From positions 1-39,736 of the forward strand of contig JAGGRW010000200.1 of NCBI GenBank assembly GCA_021159385.1: a stretch of 39,736 bases of DNA. Reading direction: 5' to 3'. The DNA comes from Methanosarcinales archaeon. GTDB lineage: Archaea; Halobacteriota; Methanosarcinia; Methanosarcinales; Methanogasteraceae. The notes below the pieces were generated by a model, which ran no database searches, was not told the DNA's origin, and saw only the letters and a program-made list of their open reading frames with translations. Positions 15,243 through 24,264 of the stretch are shown one piece after another. The position numbers and the translations under genes were made by a program. Position 1 is the first letter of the stretch. The number at the start of each line of letters is the position of its first letter.

Positions 15243-15852
15243 ATTCCACTTGTATATAGGTATATCATGGCTATGCCCCACAGCAGACAAAATACCGCAG
15301 GTATGCCAAGCACCGTGATAATTGCGTATTTCGTCGATAGATTGCGTGCATGCTTGATCCCAAATATCCATATATTCGCGCTCCACAACAAGAGAAGGAT
15401 TTGGATGATGGTTGCTGCCAGCGTCAATGGATGCATGGGTGGGGAGTGCCAGGCGAGAACTCGATGGTTGGGCGCACAGCCAGGGTTGCAGCAACTCCTA
15501 TGACTGTTGCAATGATCATTGGGATGAAACCATATCCAACGAACTCAAACACCCGTTTGAACGACCCCGTTCCGTTGAACAGCATCGAGATGGCATAGAA
15601 TACTCCGGCATACAGTAGCCATCCGATGAACGGCATAATAAGCCCCATGATGGCGCCGATTACTGCAAAGATGCTTGCAATCACCACCGCCTCTATCGGG
15701 AAAGAGGACACTATTGCACTCATGGTTATCACACTGGAGATAGCTCCAACGATGGCTGCAACGAGCACGATTACGAATGACGTCATCAGTTTTGTGTCTT
15801 TTGCGGATAGTTCGGCAAAGAACTGATCCGGGTTTGTCAGAACATTTGTCAT
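15239..15852 (-). pseudogene. Yip1 family membrane protein, frameshifted
   Basis: VLTNPDQFF...GSFKRVFEFVGYGFIP is in one frame and LWSANIWIFGIKHARNLS in another; break near 15440. Confidence 0.75.
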
Positions 15853-15910
15853 ATTAGATCACCTCATGAATGGATATTCTTCTTTTTGGTATATAGATTT
15901 CTGTTCATAG

Positions 15911-16144
15911 TTACGATTCCTCGATGTCTGATTGATTCTGGTTCTGTGAATGCTCATAGTGGATGAACAGCTCCTCGATCGTCACGCCAAAGAAGTCCGC
16001 GAGTTTGAATGCAAGCTCAAGCGATGGGTTGTACCGCTGCTTCTCGATTGCATTGATGGTCTGGCGGGTGACCCCAAGTTTCTCTGCCAGATCCTCCTGT
16101 GTCAGGTCGTGCATCGCCCGAAAGACCTTGAGCCTGTTCTTCAT
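15911..16144 (-). CDS. XRE-family HTH repressor (TRQT recognition helix)
   Basis: MKNRLKVFRAMHDLTQEDLAEKLGVTRQTINAIEKQRYNPSLELAFKLA. Confidence 0.95.
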   Translation of the reverse strand: MKNRLKVFRAMHDLTQEDLAEKLGVTRQTINAIEKQRYNPSLELAFKLADFFGVTIEELFIHYEHSQNQNQSDIEES

Positions 16145-16150
16145 CGGAAT

Positions 16151-16549
16151 CTACATCCTCCATCTATAGCATGCATAGAACCCAAGATAGCAGTACAGCA
16201 TCAAAATTGCCAGAGCCCCGAGCCAATCACCGGCTGCCTCTCCACTCATCGCCCCGATGAATGGATGAACAAAGCGGTTCAACATGTAGAGTGCCAGCAG
16301 CCCGATCACAAATACGCTGAATGCGGCACTCGCTGCCCTTCTGCTAATCTCCAGTGTCCGTTCGTCGTGTGTTATGACTCTGTACCTCTGTCTCGCGCTG
16401 ATCAGTATGATTATCCCGATGCCAACACCGATCGCTCCGATGATTGCATTTGATGTGAGCACTCCTGCGAGCACGCTGGCGACTGCGATGACGTGTGCTG
16501 CCACACGCCAGATCGTAAACATCTTCTCATTGTTTGTGTTATCAGACAT
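16151..16549 (-). CDS. DUF2178-like membrane protein
   Basis: 2 TM, DERTLEISRRAASAAF, 2 TM; lies upstream of an XRE HTH. Confidence 0.8.
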   Translation of the reverse strand: MSDNTNNEKMFTIWRVAAHVIAVASVLAGVLTSNAIIGAIGVGIGIIILISARQRYRVITHDERTLEISRRAASAAFSVFVIGLLALYMLNRFVHPFIGAMSGEAAGDWLGALAILMLYCYLGFYACYRWRM

Positions 16550-16571
16550 TTTGTATTGCCTCCATGTCCTT

Positions 16572-16591
16572 ATGTAAAGTATTAGTTACAT
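16572..16591. promoter_or_regulatory. Putative XRE operator ATGTAA-N8-TTACAT
   Basis: Palindrome between a TATA-like TTTATGTA (minus strand, ~16596-16603) and the ATG at 16549. Confidence 0.7.
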
Positions 16592-16742
16592 TTAGTACAT
16601 AAAGCTTTCTACCAACCCCGGTGAACAGGTGAGTATCAACGATATCATCGTCTGCACGTTCCTGCAGATGCTCTTCGACCGCAGACACCATGATCGGCAG
16701 GATCTTTGTTGCGCTGACGATGGAACTTGAGAGTCAGTTCTG

Positions 16743-17915: not shown

Positions 17916-18891
17916 CGCTAACCACCTCGATAAAGATCTCGTTCAACGACGGCGATTTCATCTCAAATCTTCTCAGTTTTACGGATTCCATCAGATTCTT
18001 GAGAACATCCTGCGGGTCAGTTCCTACCCCTATGTCCAGTTCAGCGTATCTTCCATAATCTTCCATCCCTGTTACGCCGTCGATCGGTTTCAGGTCTCCC
18101 TCGTACTCCACAACCATGACCGGTGATTCCCTGTAATCGGCTTTTATCTGATCGAGTGTGCCGTAGAGCACTTTCTTGCCATGGTTGATCATCAGAATCC
18201 GGTCGCACATCCGCTCTGCCTGATCCATCTGGTGCGTGCTCAGTATGATCGTCTTCCCATCGCGCTTCAGATCGAGCATGATGTCCTTCACAATCTTCGT
18301 ATTGACCGGATCGAGTCCGGAGAAGGGCTCATCCAGAATCAGGATGTCCGGGTCATGAATGAACGCGGAAGCGAGCTGGATCTTCTGTTGCATCCCCTTG
18401 CTCAGGTCACTCACCCGCCTCTTTTTGTGATCGATGAGGTCGACCTTCTCCAGCCAGAAATCGATCCGGTCATCGGGTTTTTTGACGTTTTTGAGGTTTG
18501 CAAAGTACTTCAGGCATTCAAAAACCGTTATTTTCTGGTAAAGCCCCCTCTCCTCCGGAAGATAACCAATCCTCTCCTTAAAAGCCTCATCAAACGCTTT
18601 TCCAAACATTTTAACAGACCCATGATCGGATTTGATGATGTCAAGGATTATTCGTATCATCGTGGTCTTTCCCGCTCCGTTCGGTCCGAGTAATCCGAAT
18701 ATCTCCCCGCTTTCGATATGAAAACTGAGATCATCAAGGATCGTCTTCGTGCCGAAGCTCTTTGTCAGGTGTAGAACATCCAGAACCGGCTCATCTGTTT
18801 CATCCGTTTTTTCCACCTGCGCACCCGCGATTACAGCCGCTGCTGTTTGCCAGATCGTAAATAGTCTCTTGTTCTTTGTGTTATCAGACAT
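17908..18891 (-). CDS. ABC exporter ATP-binding subunit (NatA-like)
   Basis: GPNGAGKTT, LSKGMQQK, LILDEPFSGLD and STH motifs. The N-terminal ~22 aa resemble the DUF2178 protein at 16549. Confidence 0.93.
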   Translation of the reverse strand: MSDNTKNKRLFTIWQTAAAVIAGAQVEKTDETDEPVLDVLHLTKSFGTKTILDDLSFHIESGEIFGLLGPNGAGKTTMIRIILDIIKSDHGSVKMFGKAFDEAFKERIGYLPEERGLYQKITVFECLKYFANLKNVKKPDDRIDFWLEKVDLIDHKKRRVSDLSKGMQQKIQLASAFIHDPDILILDEPFSGLDPVNTKIVKDIMLDLKRDGKTIILSTHQMDQAERMCDRILMINHGKKVLYGTLDQIKADYRESPVMVVEYEGDLKPIDGVTGMEDYGRYAELDIGVGTDPQDVLKNLMESVKLRRFEMKSPSLNEIFIEVVSVA

Positions 18892-18919
18892 TTTGTAATG
18901 TCTCCCTGTCGTTATAAAT

Positions 18920-18937
18920 TGTAATGTACGTTTTACA
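18920..18937. promoter_or_regulatory. Putative XRE operator TGTAA-N8-TTACA
   Basis: Same palindrome as 16572-16591, upstream of the ABC genes. Confidence 0.65.
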
Positions 18938-18950
18938 TGAAGTGGATGCG

Positions 18951-19148
18951 TCAATCATCATCGAAAATAAACAGCTCCTCAATCGTCGTCTCCAGAACCT
19001 TTGCGACATCGTGAGCCAGCTTGAGCGACGGATTGTACTTCCCCTTCTCGAGAAACACAATCGTCTCCCTTCTCACCCCGACCTTCTTTGCAAGCTCCTC
19101 CTGCGTCAGGTTGTATCGTGCCCGCAGTTCCTTGATTCTGGTATTCAC
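18951..19148 (-). CDS. XRE-family HTH repressor (RRET recognition helix)
   Basis: GTG start overlaps the upstream stop; [39 protein letters not shown]. Confidence 0.93.
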
Positions 19149-19549
19149 CGGGCGTCGCCCCTCCGGTTGTAGTACCACCTGAGCATGATCCACGACCAGA
19201 TCCCGACAATGAAGAGATCGGGCACAACATCCTTAAAATTGAAGTTTAGTCCCCAGATACAACCTATTGCTTGAAGAAGAGCCATCATAAGAAGAAGGCT
19301 GCAGAACGCATGATAACCCGCCTTCTCCTCGACCTTCGCCGACCGTTCGTCCTGTATCAGGTACTCTTCTGGTGTTATTGCTGCAACGACGATTGCGACG
19401 ATTGCGACGATCCCCATAAGGAGCAGGGCAAAACCAATTCCGAAATATGAGTAATCTGGGGTAAAACCCAGCATGATGCCGCAGGCGATGATCAGGAGAA
19501 GAGCGCCGCTTGATAACCGCAAGATATCTCTATCTTTTCTGAATTTCAT
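19145..19549 (-). CDS. DUF2178-like membrane protein (array member I)
   Basis: [11 protein letters not shown]...[19 protein letters not shown]...WYYNRRGD. Confidence 0.85.
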
Positions 19550-19869
19550 CAAACCACGTCCCCCTTCCTGCTGTAGTAAAAATGCGCAACCAGAAAACTC
19601 CCGATCATCACTCCGGAAACAGCGGCGATAACCAGACGGGCAGTCAACAGTTCCGGTCTGAATATGCACACAAACGCCAGAGTCCCAACAGTCACAAATG
19701 TAAGAACCCATGACCTGCTCAACGATTGCCTCGTAATCCTGTCGGTCCGCTCGTCAAACTCGATCTCGTCTACGTGCTTATACCCCCGCCGCAGCCTGCG
19801 GACCGTTTCATAGAGCACCACGATCACCACGAAATACAGATACCAGATCCGGAAATCGCCTTCCTGCAT
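19549..19869 (-). CDS. Divergent, shorter DUF2178-like membrane protein (array member H)
   Basis: DERTDRITRQSLSRSW...FYYSRKGD. Confidence 0.75.
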   Translation of the reverse strand: MQEGDFRIWYLYFVVIVVLYETVRRLRRGYKHVDEIEFDERTDRITRQSLSRSWVLTFVTVGTLAFVCIFRPELLTARLVIAAVSGVMIGSFLVAHFYYSRKGDVV

Positions 19870-19873
19870 ATTA

Positions 19874-20230
19874 TCACTTCTCCCAGATTCCCAACAGTCC
19901 GAGCAAAAATCCTATAAGCAGCCCTGCGATGGCGGCTAACGCTATGGCAAGTATGGGGTGGCTATACCAGAATCGGTTATATGCATTATCCACCACACTC
20001 AGTTGATAGAGTTTGTCCCGAACCGGCGGAACCGCCATGAAAAGTATGACTGCTATCAAAAAGAGTATGTGGGTCCAGCTTATCTGGTCCAATTCGACGT
20101 CTCCCTTTAGATAGAAGTAAATAAAACCCAGGATACCGCTGAATAGCAGAAATCCAAAGAGACCTATCGCTTTCAAAGCTGTTTTTACACTTGTTGATTG
20201 TTTACGTTTTTCAGGATCTATGGTTTTCAT
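19874..20230 (-). CDS. Hypothetical 3-TM membrane protein inside the array (slot G)
   Basis: ATGA overlap with the upstream gene; lacks the DER and WYYNR motifs. Confidence 0.7.
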   Translation of the reverse strand: MKTIDPEKRKQSTSVKTALKAIGLFGFLLFSGILGFIYFYLKGDVELDQISWTHILFLIAVILFMAVPPVRDKLYQLSVVDNAYNRFWYSHPILAIALAAIAGLLIGFLLGLLGIWEK

Positions 20231-20631
20231 ACGATCTCACCTCTGCGGTTGTAGTACCATTTGAGTATAAGGAATGAATATGCTCCGACAAGCAGGGTTG
20301 TCCAATACATATCTTCAAGTTCAATGCCGAGCGACCAAATTTTGTCTGCCCAAAATAGAATTATTACAGATAACACGACCATCCAGCCAGCATTATATCC
20401 TGCTTTTTCAGTGATTCTTGTAATCCGTTCATCTGCTATAAGCTCTGTTTTTGGTTTTGTCGCGGTGTATACCGCCCTGGTAAATATAAATAGTCCGGCA
20501 AAAATTAAACCAAATCCTATGAAAAATGTGGTTTTAGAGGGTGCTTGAAACATCAACACCACACCCAATAAAACCACCACCAGACCGACTCTTAAAAGTC
20601 GTAAAATATCTTTATCTTTTCTGAATTTCAT
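20227..20631 (-). CDS. DUF2178-like membrane protein (array member F)
   Basis: KPKTELIADERITRITEKAGYNAGW...WYYNRRGE. Confidence 0.87.
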   Translation of the reverse strand: MKFRKDKDILRLLRVGLVVVLLGVVLMFQAPSKTTFFIGFGLIFAGLFIFTRAVYTATKPKTELIADERITRITEKAGYNAGWMVVLSVIILFWADKIWSLGIELEDMYWTTLLVGAYSFLILKWYYNRRGEIV

Positions 20632-21041
20632 ACGATCTCACCCCTCCGGTTGTAATACCATTTAAATATAAATCGTGAGTATATCCCTACTCCCATGATA
20701 AAGATGCATAGGTCCCTAAGTTCGAGGTTTACTGACCAGATTATATCCACCATGATCACGGTTAATACAAATGACGAAACCATCCCAAATGCAGAATTGC
20801 CCGCCTTTTCATTGATTCTCGTGACCCTTTCATCCGCTACAAGTTCTGTTTTTGGTTTTGATGTTGTCGCAGCATACAACGCTGAAAGCGATGTGATCAA
20901 CCCAATAATAATTAAATATAATCCAGCATAAAACGTAGCTCTATACCCTGTCGGGAATTGAATCGCAAGCATCCCCAATAGAATCAATCCAATACCAATG
21001 CCTAAAGCAAATAAAATCCTTTTATTTGTTCTTATTTTCAT
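20628..21041 (-). CDS. DUF2178-like membrane protein (array member E)
   Basis: KPKTELVADERVTRINEKAGNSAF...WYYNRRGE. Confidence 0.87.
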   Translation of the reverse strand: MKIRTNKRILFALGIGIGLILLGMLAIQFPTGYRATFYAGLYLIIIGLITSLSALYAATTSKPKTELVADERVTRINEKAGNSAFGMVSSFVLTVIMVDIIWSVNLELRDLCIFIMGVGIYSRFIFKWYYNRRGEIV

Positions 21042-21063
21042 TTACATCGCCCGCGTTCTCAAA

Positions 21064-21174
21064 TTAAAACACGAAGTCACCCAACGACTCCGCTACTCTT
21101 ATCAGCTCGTCCGTCTCAAGTTCCTCCTGAGTCAGGCTGTATCGCGCCCACAGTTCCTCGATTCTGGTTTTCAC
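21064..21174 (-). pseudogene. Chimeric remnant: XRE-HTH N-terminus fused to a LolA-like lipoprotein C-terminus
   Basis: VKTRIEELWARYSLTQEEL|ETDELIRVAESL; the halves match 19148 (HTH start) and 22822 (lipoprotein end). Confidence 0.85.
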
Positions 21175-21572
21175 ACGATATCCTCCCTTCGATTATAATA
21201 CCATCTGAGTATAACAAACGAAAGCATTCCAACAAAGAAAATATCAGGTGAAACGCTCTTATAGCTAAGATCTAATCTCCAGAACATAGCTATTGATTGA
21301 ACAAGAGCCCCGGTCCCAAGGAGAATCCAGAACGCGTGATAACCTGCCTTTTCATTGACTCTCACAGACCTTTCGTCCTGTATCAGATCTTCTTTTCTTG
21401 CTGCTGTGATGATGGCTATGATGATCGCAATAATCCCCGCGATGATCAGGACCGAACCGATCCCGAAATAGGTAGGACCGGAAAGAAAACTCATTATGAG
21501 GATACCGGCGAGGATTAATAGAACAGCAATGCCTGAGAAACGCAGGATATCTTTATCTTTTCTTATTTTCAT
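21171..21572 (-). CDS. DUF2178-like membrane protein (array member D)
   Basis: MKIRKDKDILR...[19 protein letters not shown]...WYYNRRED. Confidence 0.87.
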   Translation of the reverse strand: MKIRKDKDILRFSGIAVLLILAGILIMSFLSGPTYFGIGSVLIIAGIIAIIIAIITAARKEDLIQDERSVRVNEKAGYHAFWILLGTGALVQSIAMFWRLDLSYKSVSPDIFFVGMLSFVILRWYYNRREDIV

Positions 21573-21976
21573 ACTACATCCCCTCTCCTGTTGTAGTACC
21601 ATCTGAATATAAACCAGGAATATATTCCTACTAACAGGGTTGTCCAGTACATATCCTCAAGTTCGAGGTCTAATGACCAGATTTTATCTGCCCAAAACAG
21701 AATCATTACAGCTAACAAAACCAGCCAGCCTGCAGTATAACCTGCTTTTTCATTGATTCTCGTAACCCTTTCATCTACTATAAGTTCTGTTTTTGGTTTT
21801 GTCGCGGCGTGTGACGTCATGACAAACATAAATAGCCCAGTAAAAGTTAAACCAAGTCCTATGAAAAATAGGGCTTTAGATTGTGCTTGAAATATCAACA
21901 TAACCACACCCAACAGAACCGACCCCAGACCAATTCCTGAAGTGAGTAAAATCTTTTTATCGGTTCTTATTTTCAT
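21569..21976 (-). CDS. DUF2178-like membrane protein (array member C)
   Basis: KPKTELIVDERVTRINEKAGYTAGW...WYYNRRGD. Confidence 0.87.
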   Translation of the reverse strand: MKIRTDKKILLTSGIGLGSVLLGVVMLIFQAQSKALFFIGLGLTFTGLFMFVMTSHAATKPKTELIVDERVTRINEKAGYTAGWLVLLAVMILFWADKIWSLDLELEDMYWTTLLVGIYSWFIFRWYYNRRGDVV

Positions 21977-21977
21977 T

Positions 21978-22373
21978 TTATTTACCCTCTACCCTGTTGT
22001 AATACCATCCAAGTATAACAAACGAAAACACACCGATAAGAAGAGTCGCCGAGAGCGTACCTCTAATTTCAAGATTGTATAACCCTCTTTCATCTGCCAG
22101 TAACAGCAGTCCGCCAGACATTACAATTATCCAGAATGCGGCATATCCCGCCCTCTGATCATTTTTCTCTGTCCTTTCATCAGGCAGGACTTCTGTTTCC
22201 GGTCTTCGCATGGCGTACAATGCTGAACCAAGCATGATCAGTCCGACCCAGATAAGAGAACAGTGCTTAAAATCATAACTATGAAGACAATTGATTATGC
22301 CCCCCAAAACCATCACGGTTCCTGCCAGTAAGCCCCCTATAACGAATGCATCCTTGTGGTTTCTAATTTTCAC
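21978..22373 (-). CDS. DUF2178-like membrane protein (array member B)
   Basis: GTG start overlaps the upstream stop; PDERTEKNDQRAGYAAF...WYYNR. Confidence 0.85.
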   Translation of the reverse strand: MKIRNHKDAFVIGGLLAGTVMVLGGIINCLHSYDFKHCSLIWVGLIMLGSALYAMRRPETEVLPDERTEKNDQRAGYAAFWIIVMSGGLLLLADERGLYNLEIRGTLSATLLIGVFSFVILGWYYNRVEGK

Positions 22374-22780
22374 TGAATCACATCCCCTTTTCTGTTGTAG
22401 TACCACCTGAGTATGTTCCGCGAAATTATCCCGACAAACATCGCCGCATAGTACATATCCGCGATTTCGATTCCAATCGACCATGCCCGATCCGACCCGA
22501 ATAGAATAGTCATGGATATCAGAACCATCCAGTATGCGGAGTTGCCCGCCCTCTCATTGATTCTTGCAATCCGTTCGTCCGCTACGAGTTCTGTTTCCGG
22601 TTTCGTTGTGGCGTGTAACAATATAGTAAATATAAGCATCCCGGCAACGATCAAACCCATACTAAAGAAGAACTGGGCTCTGGAAGGCGTCCAAAAAGCC
22701 AGTATAGCTACACCCACCGCGATCACGCTTATACTTACCCCCATAGACAGTTTAATCTTCGTATCTGTTCTTATATTCAT
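22370..22780 (-). CDS. DUF2178-like membrane protein (array member A)
   Basis: KPETELVADERIARINERAGNSAY...WYYNRKGD. Confidence 0.87.
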   Translation of the reverse strand: MNIRTDTKIKLSMGVSISVIAVGVAILAFWTPSRAQFFFSMGLIVAGMLIFTILLHATTKPETELVADERIARINERAGNSAYWMVLISMTILFGSDRAWSIGIEIADMYYAAMFVGIISRNILRWYYNRKGDVIQ

Positions 22781-22821
22781 CCGGTATCACCCCTTCCCGC
22801 ACAAAATAAAAAAATACGGAG

Positions 22822-23916
22822 TCATGTCATCGACTCCGCTACGTTCACCAGCTCGTCCTTCTCAAGCCCACCAGACAGCGAATAATCGATGCCATCTGCG
22901 CTCCACTGAAGCGTGTTCATACCGAACATGGACGTAAACTCTCCGTCAGTGCCATTGATGCTCACAATCTCGGGTTCGCCCATTCGCGGTCCGGACTGTT
23001 CCGTATCGTCACTGATCCACTCTGAGAGATACAATCGCTCATCTCCGTTCGTATATTTCAGCGATACGACCTCCCGCTCGCCACCAGTCACCATTGCATG
23101 GTCGTCTAATTCGTATCCTTCCGGCAGATATGACGGGGTTCTCAGATCGAATGTGAGGTTCGCCCTCGCTTCCTCAAGCGTCATCTTCTCAGGCATCCTA
23201 TCCTCAAACGATTCCTCCACGACCTCAGCACCAACCGGTGCCTCGAATATGAACTCGCTGTCAGGGATGCCGGTGTTAAACGTTATATCCCGGTATTCAA
23301 CCTTCACCATTGGATTGCCGTCCGCATCGTACATCTCCGTCCCGAGCAGCATCCAGTTTTCACGATCGACCCATACGCGTGTCTTAGCGATGAATTTACG
23401 CTTAGATTCATCCTTGGGCGTTGCCTCGATCACATAAGTGCTCCGCCCGCCGACATTCTCGGTGCCCTTGTATGATATGTCGTTCTCATCCATGAGATCC
23501 TTTACGATGCTGGTGTAATCCATCTCAAACGGTTCATCCCCCATATCAGGGAGTTCCGTCTTCGTCACCTGATTCTTTGCAGGGTCGTACATCCACATCG
23601 TGCTGCCATTCCTGATCATCACCGTGCCTGCAAATTCGGCTGGCTCGATGAATTCGGAGCGGGTTTTATCCGGCATTTTGGTCATGATCGTTGCATGCGT
23701 GGTTTCGGTTTCCCCGCCATACGACGATGTCATGACCATCGTGGCTGAAAAGTCCTTTATGCTCTCCTGCTTCGCTTCCATCCTGGCAGCGATCTGGTCT
23801 GCGGACATTTCAGACATCTGATCGACGCATCCTGTGAACAGGACGGCTGCAAGGACGATTGCGACTGCTGCGATCTGTTTCGTCCGTCTCTCCATTTGTT
23901 TCGTCTGTTTCTTCAC
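22822..23916 (-). CDS. LolA-fold lipoprotein with DUF4367-like C-terminal domain
   Basis: Lipobox LFTGC; KMPDKTRSE, NGSTMWMYDP, WVDRENW, FNTGIPDSEF.F, PSYLPEGY and DELVNVAESM motifs. Confidence 0.85.
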   Translation of the reverse strand: MKKQTKQMERRTKQIAAVAIVLAAVLFTGCVDQMSEMSADQIAARMEAKQESIKDFSATMVMTSSYGGETETTHATIMTKMPDKTRSEFIEPAEFAGTVMIRNGSTMWMYDPAKNQVTKTELPDMGDEPFEMDYTSIVKDLMDENDISYKGTENVGGRSTYVIEATPKDESKRKFIAKTRVWVDRENWMLLGTEMYDADGNPMVKVEYRDITFNTGIPDSEFIFEAPVGAEVVEESFEDRMPEKMTLEEARANLTFDLRTPSYLPEGYELDDHAMVTGGEREVVSLKYTNGDERLYLSEWISDDTEQSGPRMGEPEIVSINGTDGEFTSMFGMNTLQWSADGIDYSLSGGLEKDELVNVAESMT

Positions 23917-23951
23917 CTGTTTTCACCTTCTTATGCTGTCTCTGTTGTTGA

Positions 23952-24003
23952 AGTTACTTATTTCTAACTCCATGTTAGATATAGTTAACATCAAGGTATA
24001 AAA
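23952..24003 (-). promoter_or_regulatory. Promoter of the lipoprotein/DUF2178 operon with two tandem operators
   Basis: TTTTATA (minus strand, 23997-24003) followed by ATGTTA-N8-TAACAT (23972-23991) and AGTTA-N8-TAACT (23952-23969). Confidence 0.7.
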
Positions 24004-24264
24004 GGGTTTCGGGGTCGGGTGCAAGACCCGGTACGTAAAAGTTTCAAAAACAGTGTCGGTAGCAATAGTTCCGAAAGCCGCTTTTCGGATCGACAGTGAT
24101 GCGGAAGCGTTGCGCAGCAGCGCCGGAGGCATAAAAATTGCCAGAAACAGACCCATTTCCCGGGAAACCCAATAATTTTACGCCGCGGAGGAGTCCCCCG
24201 CAACCCCCACAAAAGACTTAATACCAAATCACAAGAATCAACATCACAAGAGGTGCATAACAAT

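What the first reader, a model, noticed from the sequence alone, without database searches (positions are those of the whole stretch)
21064..21174. Deletion scar reveals a higher-order duplication of the whole [lipoprotein-DUF2178n-HTH] module
The 36-aa ORF begins like the intact HTH (VKTRIEELWARYSLTQEEL vs [19 protein letters not shown]). It switches at a CTTG microhomology (21117-21120) to the lipoprotein C-terminus (CTTGAGACGGACGAGCTGATAAGAGTAGCGGAGTCG vs CTTGAGAAGGACGAGCTGGTGAACGTAGCGGAGTCG). Paralog pairs match by position: A~E (GNSA), C~F (FWADKIWSL.ELEDMYWTTLLVG) and D~I (YFGIG, LIQDERS, GYHAF; each precedes an HTH). B, G and H are unit-specific. Inference: two modules were fused into one operon under a single repressor, with fixed first and last slots and variable middle slots.
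Basis: partly seen in the sequence, partly recalled or inferred. Interest (0 to 1): 0.72.

Follow-up and report, generated by a model that had tools for sequence, protein, structure and literature searches.

The report
Chimeric gene scar joining two arrays
The 36-codon ORF is a dead hybrid of a repressor gene's start and a lipoprotein gene's end, marking where two arrays of small membrane-protein genes were joined in an ANME-2c-type archaeon; the scar is real but an ordinary kind of recombination remnant.

Summary
Window 21064-21174 (- strand) fuses the first 19 codons of the HTH gene (51/58 nt identical to 19091-19148) to the last 12 codons plus 3' flank of the LolA-like lipoprotein gene (31/36 nt). 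The switch lies at CAAG/CTTG, 21117-21120. The same breakpoint occurs in 3 of 27 family genomes and in one metagenome contig that is not a copy of one of them. It is therefore neither chance nor an assembly error.

The remnant evolves like a pseudogene: ORF lengths are 32-44 codons, with 2-5 nonsynonymous differences per pair against 0 in intact HTH genes.

The scar does show two arrays joined head to tail under one promoter, whose double palindromic operator is unique in the assembly. However, A/E, C/F and D/I are not products of one duplication. Their dS values are 2.15, 0.40 and 0.85, and AU tests reject each pair as sisters. The last slot is fixed; the first is not.

"Deletion" is not demonstrated. 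No relative keeps two complete modules, and a one-step insertion or duplication gives the same joint. The array otherwise evolves by cassette gain and loss at gene boundaries.

The parts
23953..24013 (-). Promoter of the operon: BRE/TATA-like element (about 23996-24013) followed by two palindromes GTTA-N8-TAAC (23974-23989 and 23953-23968), 21 nt apart
   Evidence: Conserved in 15 of 15 aligned family loci. The only two matches in the window (expected 0.24). The only pair 19-23 nt apart in the 2.05-Mb assembly. The same architecture lies upstream of DUF2178-HTH operons in other archaea: 37 of 67 assessable loci, against 0.046 expected per search window.
22822..23916 (-). Lipoprotein gene (LolA_like + DUF4367 domains); parent family of the 3' half of the scar (homologous part 22811-22866)
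   Evidence: Pfam LolA_like 2.6e-20 and DUF4367 3.5e-13. blastn of the fragment to 22811-22866, E=1.5e-8.
22370..22780 (-). DUF2178 gene A, first array. It sits in the first slot only in this window
   Evidence: Pfam DUF2178, 30.9 bits. Falls in the A clade of 9 rows, 99/95, whose other members sit just before the last gene of single modules.
21978..22373 (-). DUF2178-like gene B (GTG start)
   Evidence: Pfam 17.7 bits, below the cut-off. B clade supported 99/100.
21569..21976 (-). DUF2178 gene C
   Evidence: Pfam 24.9 bits. Groups with the C genes of G004, G009 and G014, 95/94.
21171..21572 (-). DUF2178 gene D, the terminal-slot type of the first array
   Evidence: Pfam 33.1 bits. In the D1 clade with the last genes of single-module genomes G005, G020 and G024.
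21117..21174 (-). Scar, HTH-derived half: codons 1-19 of a repressor gene. The GTG start overlaps the stop of D
   Evidence: 51/58 nt identical to 19091-19148; E=1e-16. Pairs of scars differ by 2-5 nonsynonymous changes in these codons; 10 pairs of intact HTH genes differ by 0.
21042..21120 (-). Scar, lipoprotein-derived half: the last 12 codons (21085-21120), a degraded stop region, and the 3' flank up to the start of E
   Evidence: 31/36 nt identical to the lipoprotein C-terminus. Closest to non-resident lipoprotein alleles (L036, 83-86%) rather than the resident ones (69-76%) in all three genomes that carry the scar.
20628..21041 (-). DUF2178-like gene E, first gene of the second array
   Evidence: Pfam 22.6 bits, against a cut-off of 22.8. 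E clade of 5 rows, 99*: 3 follow the scar and 2 follow a B gene directly.
20227..20631 (-). DUF2178-like gene F (C-type); absent from the G014 array
   Evidence: 69% aa identity to C. Nearest relatives are L035_F and L040_C (97*) and the C-slot genes of G002/G042. Absent in G014.
19874..20230 (-). Gene G, a small membrane protein with no family match
   Evidence: No Pfam, NCBIfam or PADLOC hit. Orthologues in G014, G016 and L037.
19549..19869 (-). Gene H, a shortened DUF2178-like protein
   Evidence: Aligns to the C-terminal two thirds of the paralogs, including the DER motif and the YY.RKGDVV end. Found between the C and A genes in single modules.
19145..19549 (-). DUF2178 gene I, the terminal-slot type of the second array
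   Evidence: Pfam 27.4 bits. I clade with G014, L037 and G013. Predicted as four long helices, pLDDT 77.9.
18951..19148 (-). Intact HTH_3 (XRE/CylR2-like) repressor gene, 65 aa
   Evidence: Pfam HTH_3 8e-16. PDB 9k3w 4e-13 and CylR2 1utx 1e-9. 77-100% identical across 39 archaeal loci.

Best explanation
The 36-codon ORF is a non-functional chimeric remnant. One illegitimate recombination at a 4-nt microhomology (CTTG) joined two pieces. The first is the opening 57 nt of the repressor (HTH) gene that closed an upstream array (lipoprotein, then ..B-C-D, then HTH). The second is the last 36 nt plus 3' flank of a lipoprotein gene that opened a second array (E..I, then HTH).

The second array was most likely already diverged when the joint formed. 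I favour capture of a diverged array anchored on the ultra-conserved HTH gene, in the manner of homology-facilitated illegitimate recombination (about 0.4). Deletion between two complete tandem modules comes next (about 0.25), level with an in-situ tandem duplication followed by cassette replacement (about 0.25).

Shown: the chimera, its breakpoint, its presence in several lineages and its relaxed constraint.

Inferred: the route of formation. Also inferred is the consequence, that the second array has no promoter of its own. All eleven genes would then hang on the one promoter upstream of the lipoprotein gene, whose TATA box is followed by two GTTA-N8-TAAC palindromes. These are the presumed operators of the CylR2-like repressor encoded at the operon's end.

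Apart from this one joint, the array changes by gain, loss and exchange of whole cassettes at the conserved gene ends. The A/E, C/F and D/I resemblances reflect old slot-type subfamilies, not the joining event.
For: Chimera and its significance.

Same breakpoint in G000, G014 and G009 (3 of 27 family genomes), in metagenome contig L037, and in L034, which looks like a copy of the G014 locus. A contig of run X1 spans it, and contigs of X4, from another study, cover it with variants.

Relaxed constraint:
- ORF lengths of 36, 38, 32 and 44 codons.
- 2-5 nonsynonymous differences per pair in the 19 HTH-derived codons, against 0 in 10 pairs of intact HTH genes.
- No Pfam hit.
- Divergence of the fragment between G000 and G014 is 16/132, comparable to dS of the flanking genes (0.08-0.36).

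The second array was diverged when joined:
- dS is 0.85 for D-I, 0.40 for C-F and 2.15 for A-E.
- D groups with the last genes of single-module genomes and excludes I. AU tests reject each pair as sisters.
- I-type and E-type genes also occur outside fused loci: G013, L035, L036.
- The lipoprotein-derived half is closer to non-resident alleles (83-86%) than to the resident lipoprotein gene (69-76%) in all 3 genomes.

Single promoter and operator.

Cassette turnover:
- Array maps differ among 15 family loci.
- In L035 and L036, E directly follows B, with the same boundary as the window's B-to-C boundary.
- Contigs in runs X4, X19 and X20 skip whole genes with joints at gene boundaries: lipoprotein-to-B, lipoprotein-to-C, A-to-D, C-to-H, F-to-H, E-to-H and D-to-HTH.
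- Gene starts are 71% identical among paralogs, against 41% mid-gene.

Mosaicism: between G000 and G009, dS is 0.12-0.15 for C and D but 0.78 for the lipoprotein gene and 0.55 for HTH.
Against: - The ORF stays open in 4 of 4 distinct variants. pN/pS is below 1 in 5 of 6 pairs (0.24-0.63) and undefined in the sixth (0 synonymous, 5 nonsynonymous). Weak constraint, for example as a translational bridge from D to E, is therefore not excluded.
- The second array of G009 (C-like, G-like, A-type, D2-type) differs from that of G000/G014 although the breakpoint is identical. Whole arrays can thus be replaced after the joint formed, so present-day divergence of D/I and C/F does not strictly date the joining.
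- The HTH start is nearly invariant even at synonymous sites across genomes. The G014 scar also carries a 26-nt patch identical to its own HTH gene, which suggests gene conversion. Identity between the scar and its parent is therefore no clock.
- The preference for non-resident lipoprotein alleles rests on about 8-10 nt in about 72.
- All genomes are fragmented MAGs, so binning of short contigs is uncertain.
- Binding of the repressor to the palindromes, and co-transcription across the scar, were not observed.
Confidence: 0.7

Rival explanations
1. Two complete modules (lipoprotein, array, HTH) stood in tandem. A later deletion of about 1.3-1.5 kb between CTTG in the first HTH gene and CTTG near the end of the second lipoprotein gene removed the rest of the first HTH gene, the second promoter and most of the second lipoprotein gene.
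For: - The topology fits.
- It explains why the two arrays and the two lipoprotein alleles were already different.
- An HTH gene followed by a lipoprotein gene exists in another family (G026: four DUF2178 genes, HTH, lipoprotein).
- Tandem lipoprotein genes exist in G003 and G012.
Against: - It needs two events where one suffices.
- No locus with two complete modules was found in 27 family genomes, in the best 80 of 488 or more HTH loci, or in 11 metagenome loci.
- Many contigs are short and the MAGs are 56-94% complete, so absence is weak evidence.
Confidence: 0.25
2. A one-step in-situ tandem duplication. Unequal exchange at CTTG duplicated the stretch from the lipoprotein C-terminus to HTH codon 19. 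The scar is the duplication joint, the two arrays were identical at birth, and later cassette replacement made them different.
For: - A single event with a single novel joint at a microhomology, as observed.
- The D-plus-scar stretch is collinear with I-plus-HTH, and the lipoprotein-C-terminus-plus-A stretch with scar-plus-E.
- Wholesale replacement of the second array did happen, as G009 against G000/G014 shows.
- Cassette exchange is rampant.
Against: - None of the three paralog pairs are sisters.
- dS of the pairs is heterogeneous and well above the divergence of the scar from its parents.
- The gene after the scar is E-type, not the B-type that follows the resident lipoprotein gene in the other scar-bearing genomes.
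- The lipoprotein-derived half matches non-resident alleles better.
Confidence: 0.25
3. The ORF, or its RNA, is maintained for a function. It could be a small protein, a translational coupler between D and E, or an attenuator or promoter element inherited from the lipoprotein 3' flank.
For: - The ORF is open in all 4 variants and its start overlaps the stop of D.
- The last roughly 38 nt before E are well conserved: 37/38 between G000 and G014.
- pN/pS is 0.24-0.63 in 5 of 6 pairs.
Against: - Length and C-terminus vary, at 32-44 codons.
- Residues that are invariant in the intact HTH are replaced.
- The fragment lacks the recognition helix and has no family hit.
- The hairpins after the lipoprotein stop and inside the scar are no better than shuffles, z = -1.3 and -0.7.
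- E works without the scar in L035 and L036.
Confidence: 0.07

Closest known systems
CylR1/CylR2 regulator pair of the Enterococcus faecalis cytolysin operon
   Same: The HTH here is a 65-aa single-domain XRE protein that matches CylR2 structures by sequence (1utx, E=1e-9). Its gene directly follows genes for small multi-helix membrane proteins, and palindromes lie in its own promoter region. The review PMC3709268 (passages read) describes CylR2 as a promoter-binding repressor. It describes CylR1 as a suspected membrane protein with three predicted transmembrane helices that is needed for induction, and suggests the pair may be a kinase-less two-component system.
   Different: The system here is archaeal. 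The membrane partner is DUF2178, with four predicted helices. No sequence relation to CylR1 was tested. Up to nine membrane-protein genes accompany each repressor. No lantibiotic genes are nearby. Binding and signalling are untested.
Orphan immunity-gene arrays of Vibrio cholerae T6SS clusters, and C-terminal displacement in Rhs/CDI loci
   Same: These are arrays of small genes that grow by insertion of foreign modules next to a conserved anchor. The proposed route is homology-facilitated illegitimate recombination, which leaves 3' remnants of the displaced neighbouring gene (PMC5361080, abstract and passages read). Here a 3' remnant of a lipoprotein gene precedes E, the array content is mosaic between lineages, and a conserved anchor (the HTH gene) is available.
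   Different: No toxin or effector gene is present. The anchor would lie on the 3' side. The scar also keeps the 5' end of the regulator gene. The function of the cassettes is unknown, and there are no PADLOC hits.
Tandem-duplication or deletion joints at microhomology (chimeric pseudogenes)
   Same: Head-to-tail units, with a single novel joint at a 4-nt microhomology that fuses the 5' part of one gene to the 3' part of another.
   Different: The two units are not each other's closest relatives. The joint is shared by genomes of three genera whose second arrays differ.
Pfam DUF2178 (PF09946) membrane proteins paired with an HTH_3 regulator
   Same: A, C, D and I pass the Pfam cut-off. A DUF2178-type gene lies directly upstream of the HTH gene in 52 of 73 loci from other archaea.
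   Different: Most loci have one or two such genes: 34 and 12 of 73 (counted). This window has seven, plus H and G, as well as a lipoprotein gene and the scar. No paper in the held library mentions DUF2178.

Membership tests
HTH_3 / XRE repressor (PF01381) | Full five-helix domain scoring above the Pfam cut-off | tested here: met
   Intact gene 18951-19148: 58.2 bits against a cut-off of 23.
HTH_3 / XRE repressor (PF01381) | The same, for the 36-aa ORF | tested here: not met
   No Pfam hit. Only codons 1-19 are homologous, so the recognition helix is missing.
CylR2-like autorepressor | Sequence relation to CylR2 | tested here: met
   phmmer against 1utx, E=1e-9 over residues 4-62.
CylR2-like autorepressor | Palindromic operator in the regulated promoter | tested here: met
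   Two GTTA-N8-TAAC palindromes, 21 nt apart, after the TATA box. Conserved in 15 of 15 family loci and in 37 of 67 assessable loci of other archaea. This is in-silico evidence only.
CylR2-like autorepressor | Binds that operator and responds to a signal through a membrane partner | not testable with these tools
   Needs EMSA or footprinting and genetics.
DUF2178 (PF09946) | Pfam score above the cut-off of 22.8 bits | tested here: inconclusive
   A 30.9, C 24.9, D 33.1 and I 27.4 pass. E 22.6 and F 22.7 fall just below, B scores 17.7, and G and H have no hit. All except G align with the family and share the DER motif.
Tandem duplication of one unit | Corresponding genes of the two units are each other's closest relatives | tested here: not met
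   AU tests: A+E p=4e-6, C+F p=0.0014, D+I p=2e-42. dS values are 2.15, 0.40 and 0.85.
Deletion between two complete tandem modules | Relatives that retain both complete modules | tested here: not met
   None found in 27 family genomes, 80 HTH loci or 11 metagenome loci. The sample consists of fragmented MAGs.
Array growth by homology-facilitated illegitimate recombination | One microhomology joint plus a conserved anchor on the other side, with inserted DNA of foreign type | tested here: inconclusive
   The CTTG joint is present. The HTH anchor is 77-100% identical across archaea. The lipoprotein-derived half is closer to non-resident alleles. The second array is mosaic. No donor was identified.
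LolA-like lipoprotein | LolA_like and DUF4367 domains plus a lipobox-type N-terminus | tested here: met
   Pfam 2.6e-20 and 3.5e-13. The N-terminus has a hydrophobic stretch ending in TGC.

The most novel reading that the evidence does not exclude
DUF2178 proteins are CylR1-like membrane relays for one ultra-conserved, kinase-less archaeal repressor switch. The HTH protein is 77-100% identical across the 39 aligned loci from many archaeal phyla, and the same double operator is found across archaeal phyla. ANME-2c archaea have expanded the switch into a battery of laterally shuffled cassettes, comparable to orphan immunity arrays. On this reading the scar records the capture of a whole foreign array onto a resident promoter.
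Probability: 0.25. Interest if true: 0.7.

Novelty: new member of a known kind. Interest (0 to 1): 0.42.

Why it matters
The scar is a dated landmark in an otherwise fluid locus. It proves that whole arrays of small membrane-protein genes can be joined head to tail and placed under a single autoregulated promoter. Together with the cassette-boundary joints seen in natural populations, it shows how such arrays grow in uncultured methane-oxidising archaea.

The more useful by-product is a testable regulatory unit that no paper in the held library describes. It consists of an HTH repressor conserved at 77-100% identity across the 39 aligned archaeal loci, its double GTTA-N8-TAAC operator directly after the TATA box, and a DUF2178 partner gene directly upstream in 52 of 73 loci of other archaea. 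This gives DUF2178 a concrete hypothesis: a CylR1-like signal relay.

Tried and rejected
- Complex prediction of gene I protein with the HTH protein (alignments A1 and A2): no verdict, score 0.00. This is not evidence either way.
- Foldseek of the I model against the PDB: 0 matches at E<=0.001.
- RNA folding of the lipoprotein 3' hairpin and its copy in the scar: z = -1.3 and -0.7, not distinguishable from shuffles.
- PADLOC: no defence family for the lipoprotein or the membrane proteins; only generic HTH hits.
- NCBIfam: nothing for the DUF2178 genes; the lipoprotein scores below the equivalog cut-offs.
- Literature: 'DUF2178' returned 0 papers. 'PF09946/YozG/COG3655' returned only place-name noise.
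- Earlier notes of this scan near the place: none.
- RNA-library contigs (X19 and X20, one study) lie on the lipoprotein gene, B, D, H, I and HTH at 88-99% likeness, but none lies on 19944-21161. They come from relatives, so neither expression nor silence of the scar can be read from them.
- An assembly chimera was considered and rejected, because the joint occurs in independent assemblies with their own substitutions.
- Using scar-to-parent identity as a clock was rejected. The HTH start is nearly invariant at the nucleotide level, and G014 shows a likely gene-conversion patch.

Full report
**Locus**

On the minus strand the window carries one gene string:
- a lipoprotein gene with LolA_like and DUF4367 domains (22822-23916);
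- four DUF2178-type genes: A (22370-22780), B (21978-22373), C (21569-21976) and D (21171-21572);
- the 36-codon ORF (21064-21174);
- E (20628-21041), F (20227-20631), G (19874-20230), H (19549-19869) and I (19145-19549);
- a 65-aa HTH_3 gene (18951-19148).

The assembly is a 2.05-Mb, 226-contig MAG. All its DUF2178 paralogs sit in this locus. Contigs of relatives in the same family carry record titles such as "Candidatus Methanogaster" and "ANME-2c".

**Observation**

- The first 58 nt of the ORF match the start of the intact HTH gene at 51 of 58 positions.
- The next 36 nt match the lipoprotein C-terminus at 31 of 36 positions, and the homology runs on into the 3' flank.
- The two homologies overlap in CTTG.
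- blastn of the fragment against the window with itself masked finds these two places as the top hits (E=1e-16 and 1.5e-8). They remain the two best hits against the whole assembly (5e-15 and 7e-7). Shuffle z-scores are 30 and 12.

By contrast the adjoining genes are far less alike. D against I shows 60-71 identities per 100 nt.

**The joint is shared**

An identical breakpoint is present in G014:C68, G009:C97 and metagenome contig L037. Contig L034 carries it too, but its per-gene identities are those of the G014 locus, so it is not counted as independent. A degenerate junction pattern hits 3 of 27 family genomes, one in each of three genera. In G017 and G004 the contig ends inside D, so they cannot be scored. 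A 2765-nt contig of run X1 spans the joint with 3 differences. Contigs of X4, from another study, cover it with variants. It is not an assembly artefact.

**The remnant is decaying**

- The ORF is 36, 38, 32 and 44 codons long in the four distinct versions.
- In the 19 HTH-derived codons, pairs of scars differ by 2-5 nonsynonymous changes. Ten pairs of intact HTH genes differ by none.
- Between G000 and G014 the fragment differs at 16 of 132 sites, within the range of dS of the neighbouring genes (0.08-0.36). Only the last roughly 38 nt before E are well kept, at 37/38.
- Against this, pN/pS over the 30 shared codons is 0.24-0.63 in 5 of 6 pairs, and the ORF is open in all four versions. Weak constraint cannot be excluded.
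- The G014 scar carries a 26-nt run identical to G014's own HTH gene where the other scars differ at five sites. This looks like gene conversion.

**Paralog pairs**

Amino-acid identities are 69% for C-F, 52% for D-I and 44% for A-E. A is closer to C and F (49% each), and E is closer to C (53%) and F (50%).

A 58-row maximum-likelihood tree with members from 16 loci gives four results.
- A terminal-slot clade (99/97) contains D, I and the last gene of every array. Within it, D groups with the last genes of single-module genomes (G005, G020, G024), while I groups with G014_I and G013.
- C groups with the C genes of G004, G009 and G014 (95/94).
- F groups with the C-slot genes of G002/G042 (93/92).
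- A lies in a clade of nine genes (99/95) that elsewhere sit just before the last gene, and E forms its own clade (100/99).

AU tests reject A+E (p=4e-6), C+F (p=0.0014) and D+I (p=2e-42) as exclusive sisters. Joining the whole A clade to the E clade is not rejected (p=0.087), but that grouping was named after seeing the tree.

Synonymous divergence is 2.15 for A-E, 0.40 for C-F and 0.85 for D-I. The pairs are therefore old subfamilies of unequal age, not copies made by one event.

**Slots**

A terminal-clade gene precedes the HTH gene or HTH scar in 15 of 15 positions in family loci and in 3 of 3 metagenome loci.

The gene after the lipoprotein gene is B in 9 of 16 loci. It is C-type or another gene in the rest, and A only in this window. 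"Fixed last slot" holds; "fixed first slot" does not.

**Cassette turnover**

- Array maps differ from genome to genome, for example B-C-H-A-D, C'-C-H-A-D, B-D and B-C-D-scar-E-G-H-I.
- E orthologues follow the scar in three loci. In L035 and L036 they follow B directly, across the same boundary sequence as the window's B-to-C boundary.
- Contigs in runs X4, X19 and X20 skip whole genes, with joints at gene boundaries: lipoprotein-to-B, lipoprotein-to-C, A-to-D, C-to-H, F-to-H, E-to-H and D-to-HTH.
- Gene starts are 71% identical among the paralogs, against 41% mid-gene. This makes the ends plausible recombination sites (inference).
- Between G000 and G009, C and D have dS of 0.12-0.15, but the lipoprotein gene has 0.78 and HTH 0.55. 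The locus is therefore mosaic.

**How the joint arose**

Three routes give the same topology:
- (i) two complete tandem modules followed by a deletion;
- (ii) a one-step tandem duplication from the lipoprotein C-terminus to HTH codon 19;
- (iii) capture of a diverged array, with homologous exchange in the conserved HTH gene on one side and a microhomology join on the other. This is the route proposed for orphan immunity arrays (PMC5361080, passages read).

Evidence that the second unit was already different:
- the tree and the dS values above;
- I-type and E-type genes that occur outside fused loci;
- the scar's lipoprotein half, which matches non-resident alleles at 83-86% (L036 best) but the resident lipoprotein gene at only 76, 76 and 69% in the three genomes.

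Evidence that weakens this: G009 has the same breakpoint but a different second array, so arrays can be replaced later.

No locus with two complete modules was seen in 27 family genomes, 80 HTH loci or 11 metagenome loci. I rate route (iii) at about 0.4 and routes (i) and (ii) at about 0.25 each.

**Regulation**

Upstream of the lipoprotein gene, 15 of 15 family loci share three elements: a BRE/TATA-like element, then ATGTTA-N8-TAACAT, then GAGTTA-N8-TAACTTC.

GTTA-N8-TAAC occurs only twice in the window, 21 nt apart, against 0.24 expected. The assembly holds 12 single matches but no other such pair. No match lies near the scar.

The HTH protein is 77-100% identical across the 39 loci in alignment A2, 28 of them from archaeal lineages outside the family. 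Its partner is as little as 13-20% identical in the most distant loci but keeps an invariant D-E pair.

Among 73 non-family HTH loci, 37 of 67 assessable ones have the exact palindrome within -250 to +120 nt of the array start, against 0.046 expected. It usually occurs as a pair 21 nt apart, after TTTAAATA.

The closest solved relatives of the HTH protein are a PbsX-family regulator (9k3w, 4e-13) and CylR2 (1e-9). CylR2 represses its promoter and works with the small membrane protein CylR1 (PMC3709268, passages read).

Inference: the HTH protein autorepresses the operon at the double operator, and the adjacent terminal-slot DUF2178 protein relays a signal to it. After the joint formed, the second array depends on that one promoter.

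The I model is four long helices, with the DER motif at the start of helix 3 (pLDDT 77.9).

**Context**

The ABC transporter after the HTH gene is not a conserved neighbour. G014, G009, G005 and G010 have other genes there, although an ABC pair follows the HTH gene in L088 and L123.

**Verdict**

The scar is real, shared between lineages and informative. As a kind of feature it is ordinary.

Noticed in passing
window 18850-18960 compared with 16500-16620: A second chimeric joint. The promoter region and roughly the first 14-24 codons in front of the ABC ATPase gene are homologous to those of the DUF2178-like gene J (16151-16549): local score 87 against a shuffle maximum of 29. The ATPase therefore probably starts at the ATG near 18899, not at the TTG at 18954. 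Both copies carry TGTAA-N8-TTACA (16573-16590 and 18920-18937), the only two matches in the window.
   Followed up: partly
loci L052-L124 (genome contigs): The HTH protein is 77-91% identical to the window's across Woesearchaeota, Bathyarchaeota, Thermoplasmata, Methanoperedens, ANME-1, Altiarchaeota, Methanobacterium and others, with 488 or more relatives. It almost always follows one or more DUF2178-type genes and shares the same TATA-plus-double-palindrome promoter. No paper in the held library mentions DUF2178.
   Followed up: partly
L015 7466-7582 (G014 scar) compared with L015 5900-5956: The G014 scar has a 26-nt run identical to G014's own HTH gene at five sites where the other three scars differ. 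This suggests gene conversion between the scar and the intact gene.
   Followed up: partly
G002:C74 (L020) and G042:C77 (L033): The DUF2178 proteins of these two arrays are identical although the genomes are assigned to different genera. This points either to very recent transfer or to mis-binning of short contigs of 5.0 and 5.6 kb.
   Followed up: no
G003:C135 (L018 1536-3732) and G012:C93 (L032 1-2186): Two lipoprotein genes lie in tandem ahead of the array. The second one in G003 is split across two frames.
   Followed up: no
window 15424-16549: A second small module lies downstream: the DUF2178-like gene J, a paralogous HTH gene (54% identical to the main one), and a YknW-family (Yip1-like) membrane protein.
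   Followed up: partly
window 18900-24100, runs X4, X19 and X20: Natural populations hold many array variants that differ by whole cassettes, with joints at gene boundaries. RNA-library contigs of relatives bridge C-to-H, F-to-H and D-to-HTH.
   Followed up: partly
G026:C4 (L027 13093-16001): In another family of the same order, the lipoprotein gene lies after the HTH gene: four DUF2178 genes, then HTH, then the lipoprotein gene. The HTH-to-lipoprotein adjacency needed by the deletion model therefore does exist in nature.
   Followed up: no
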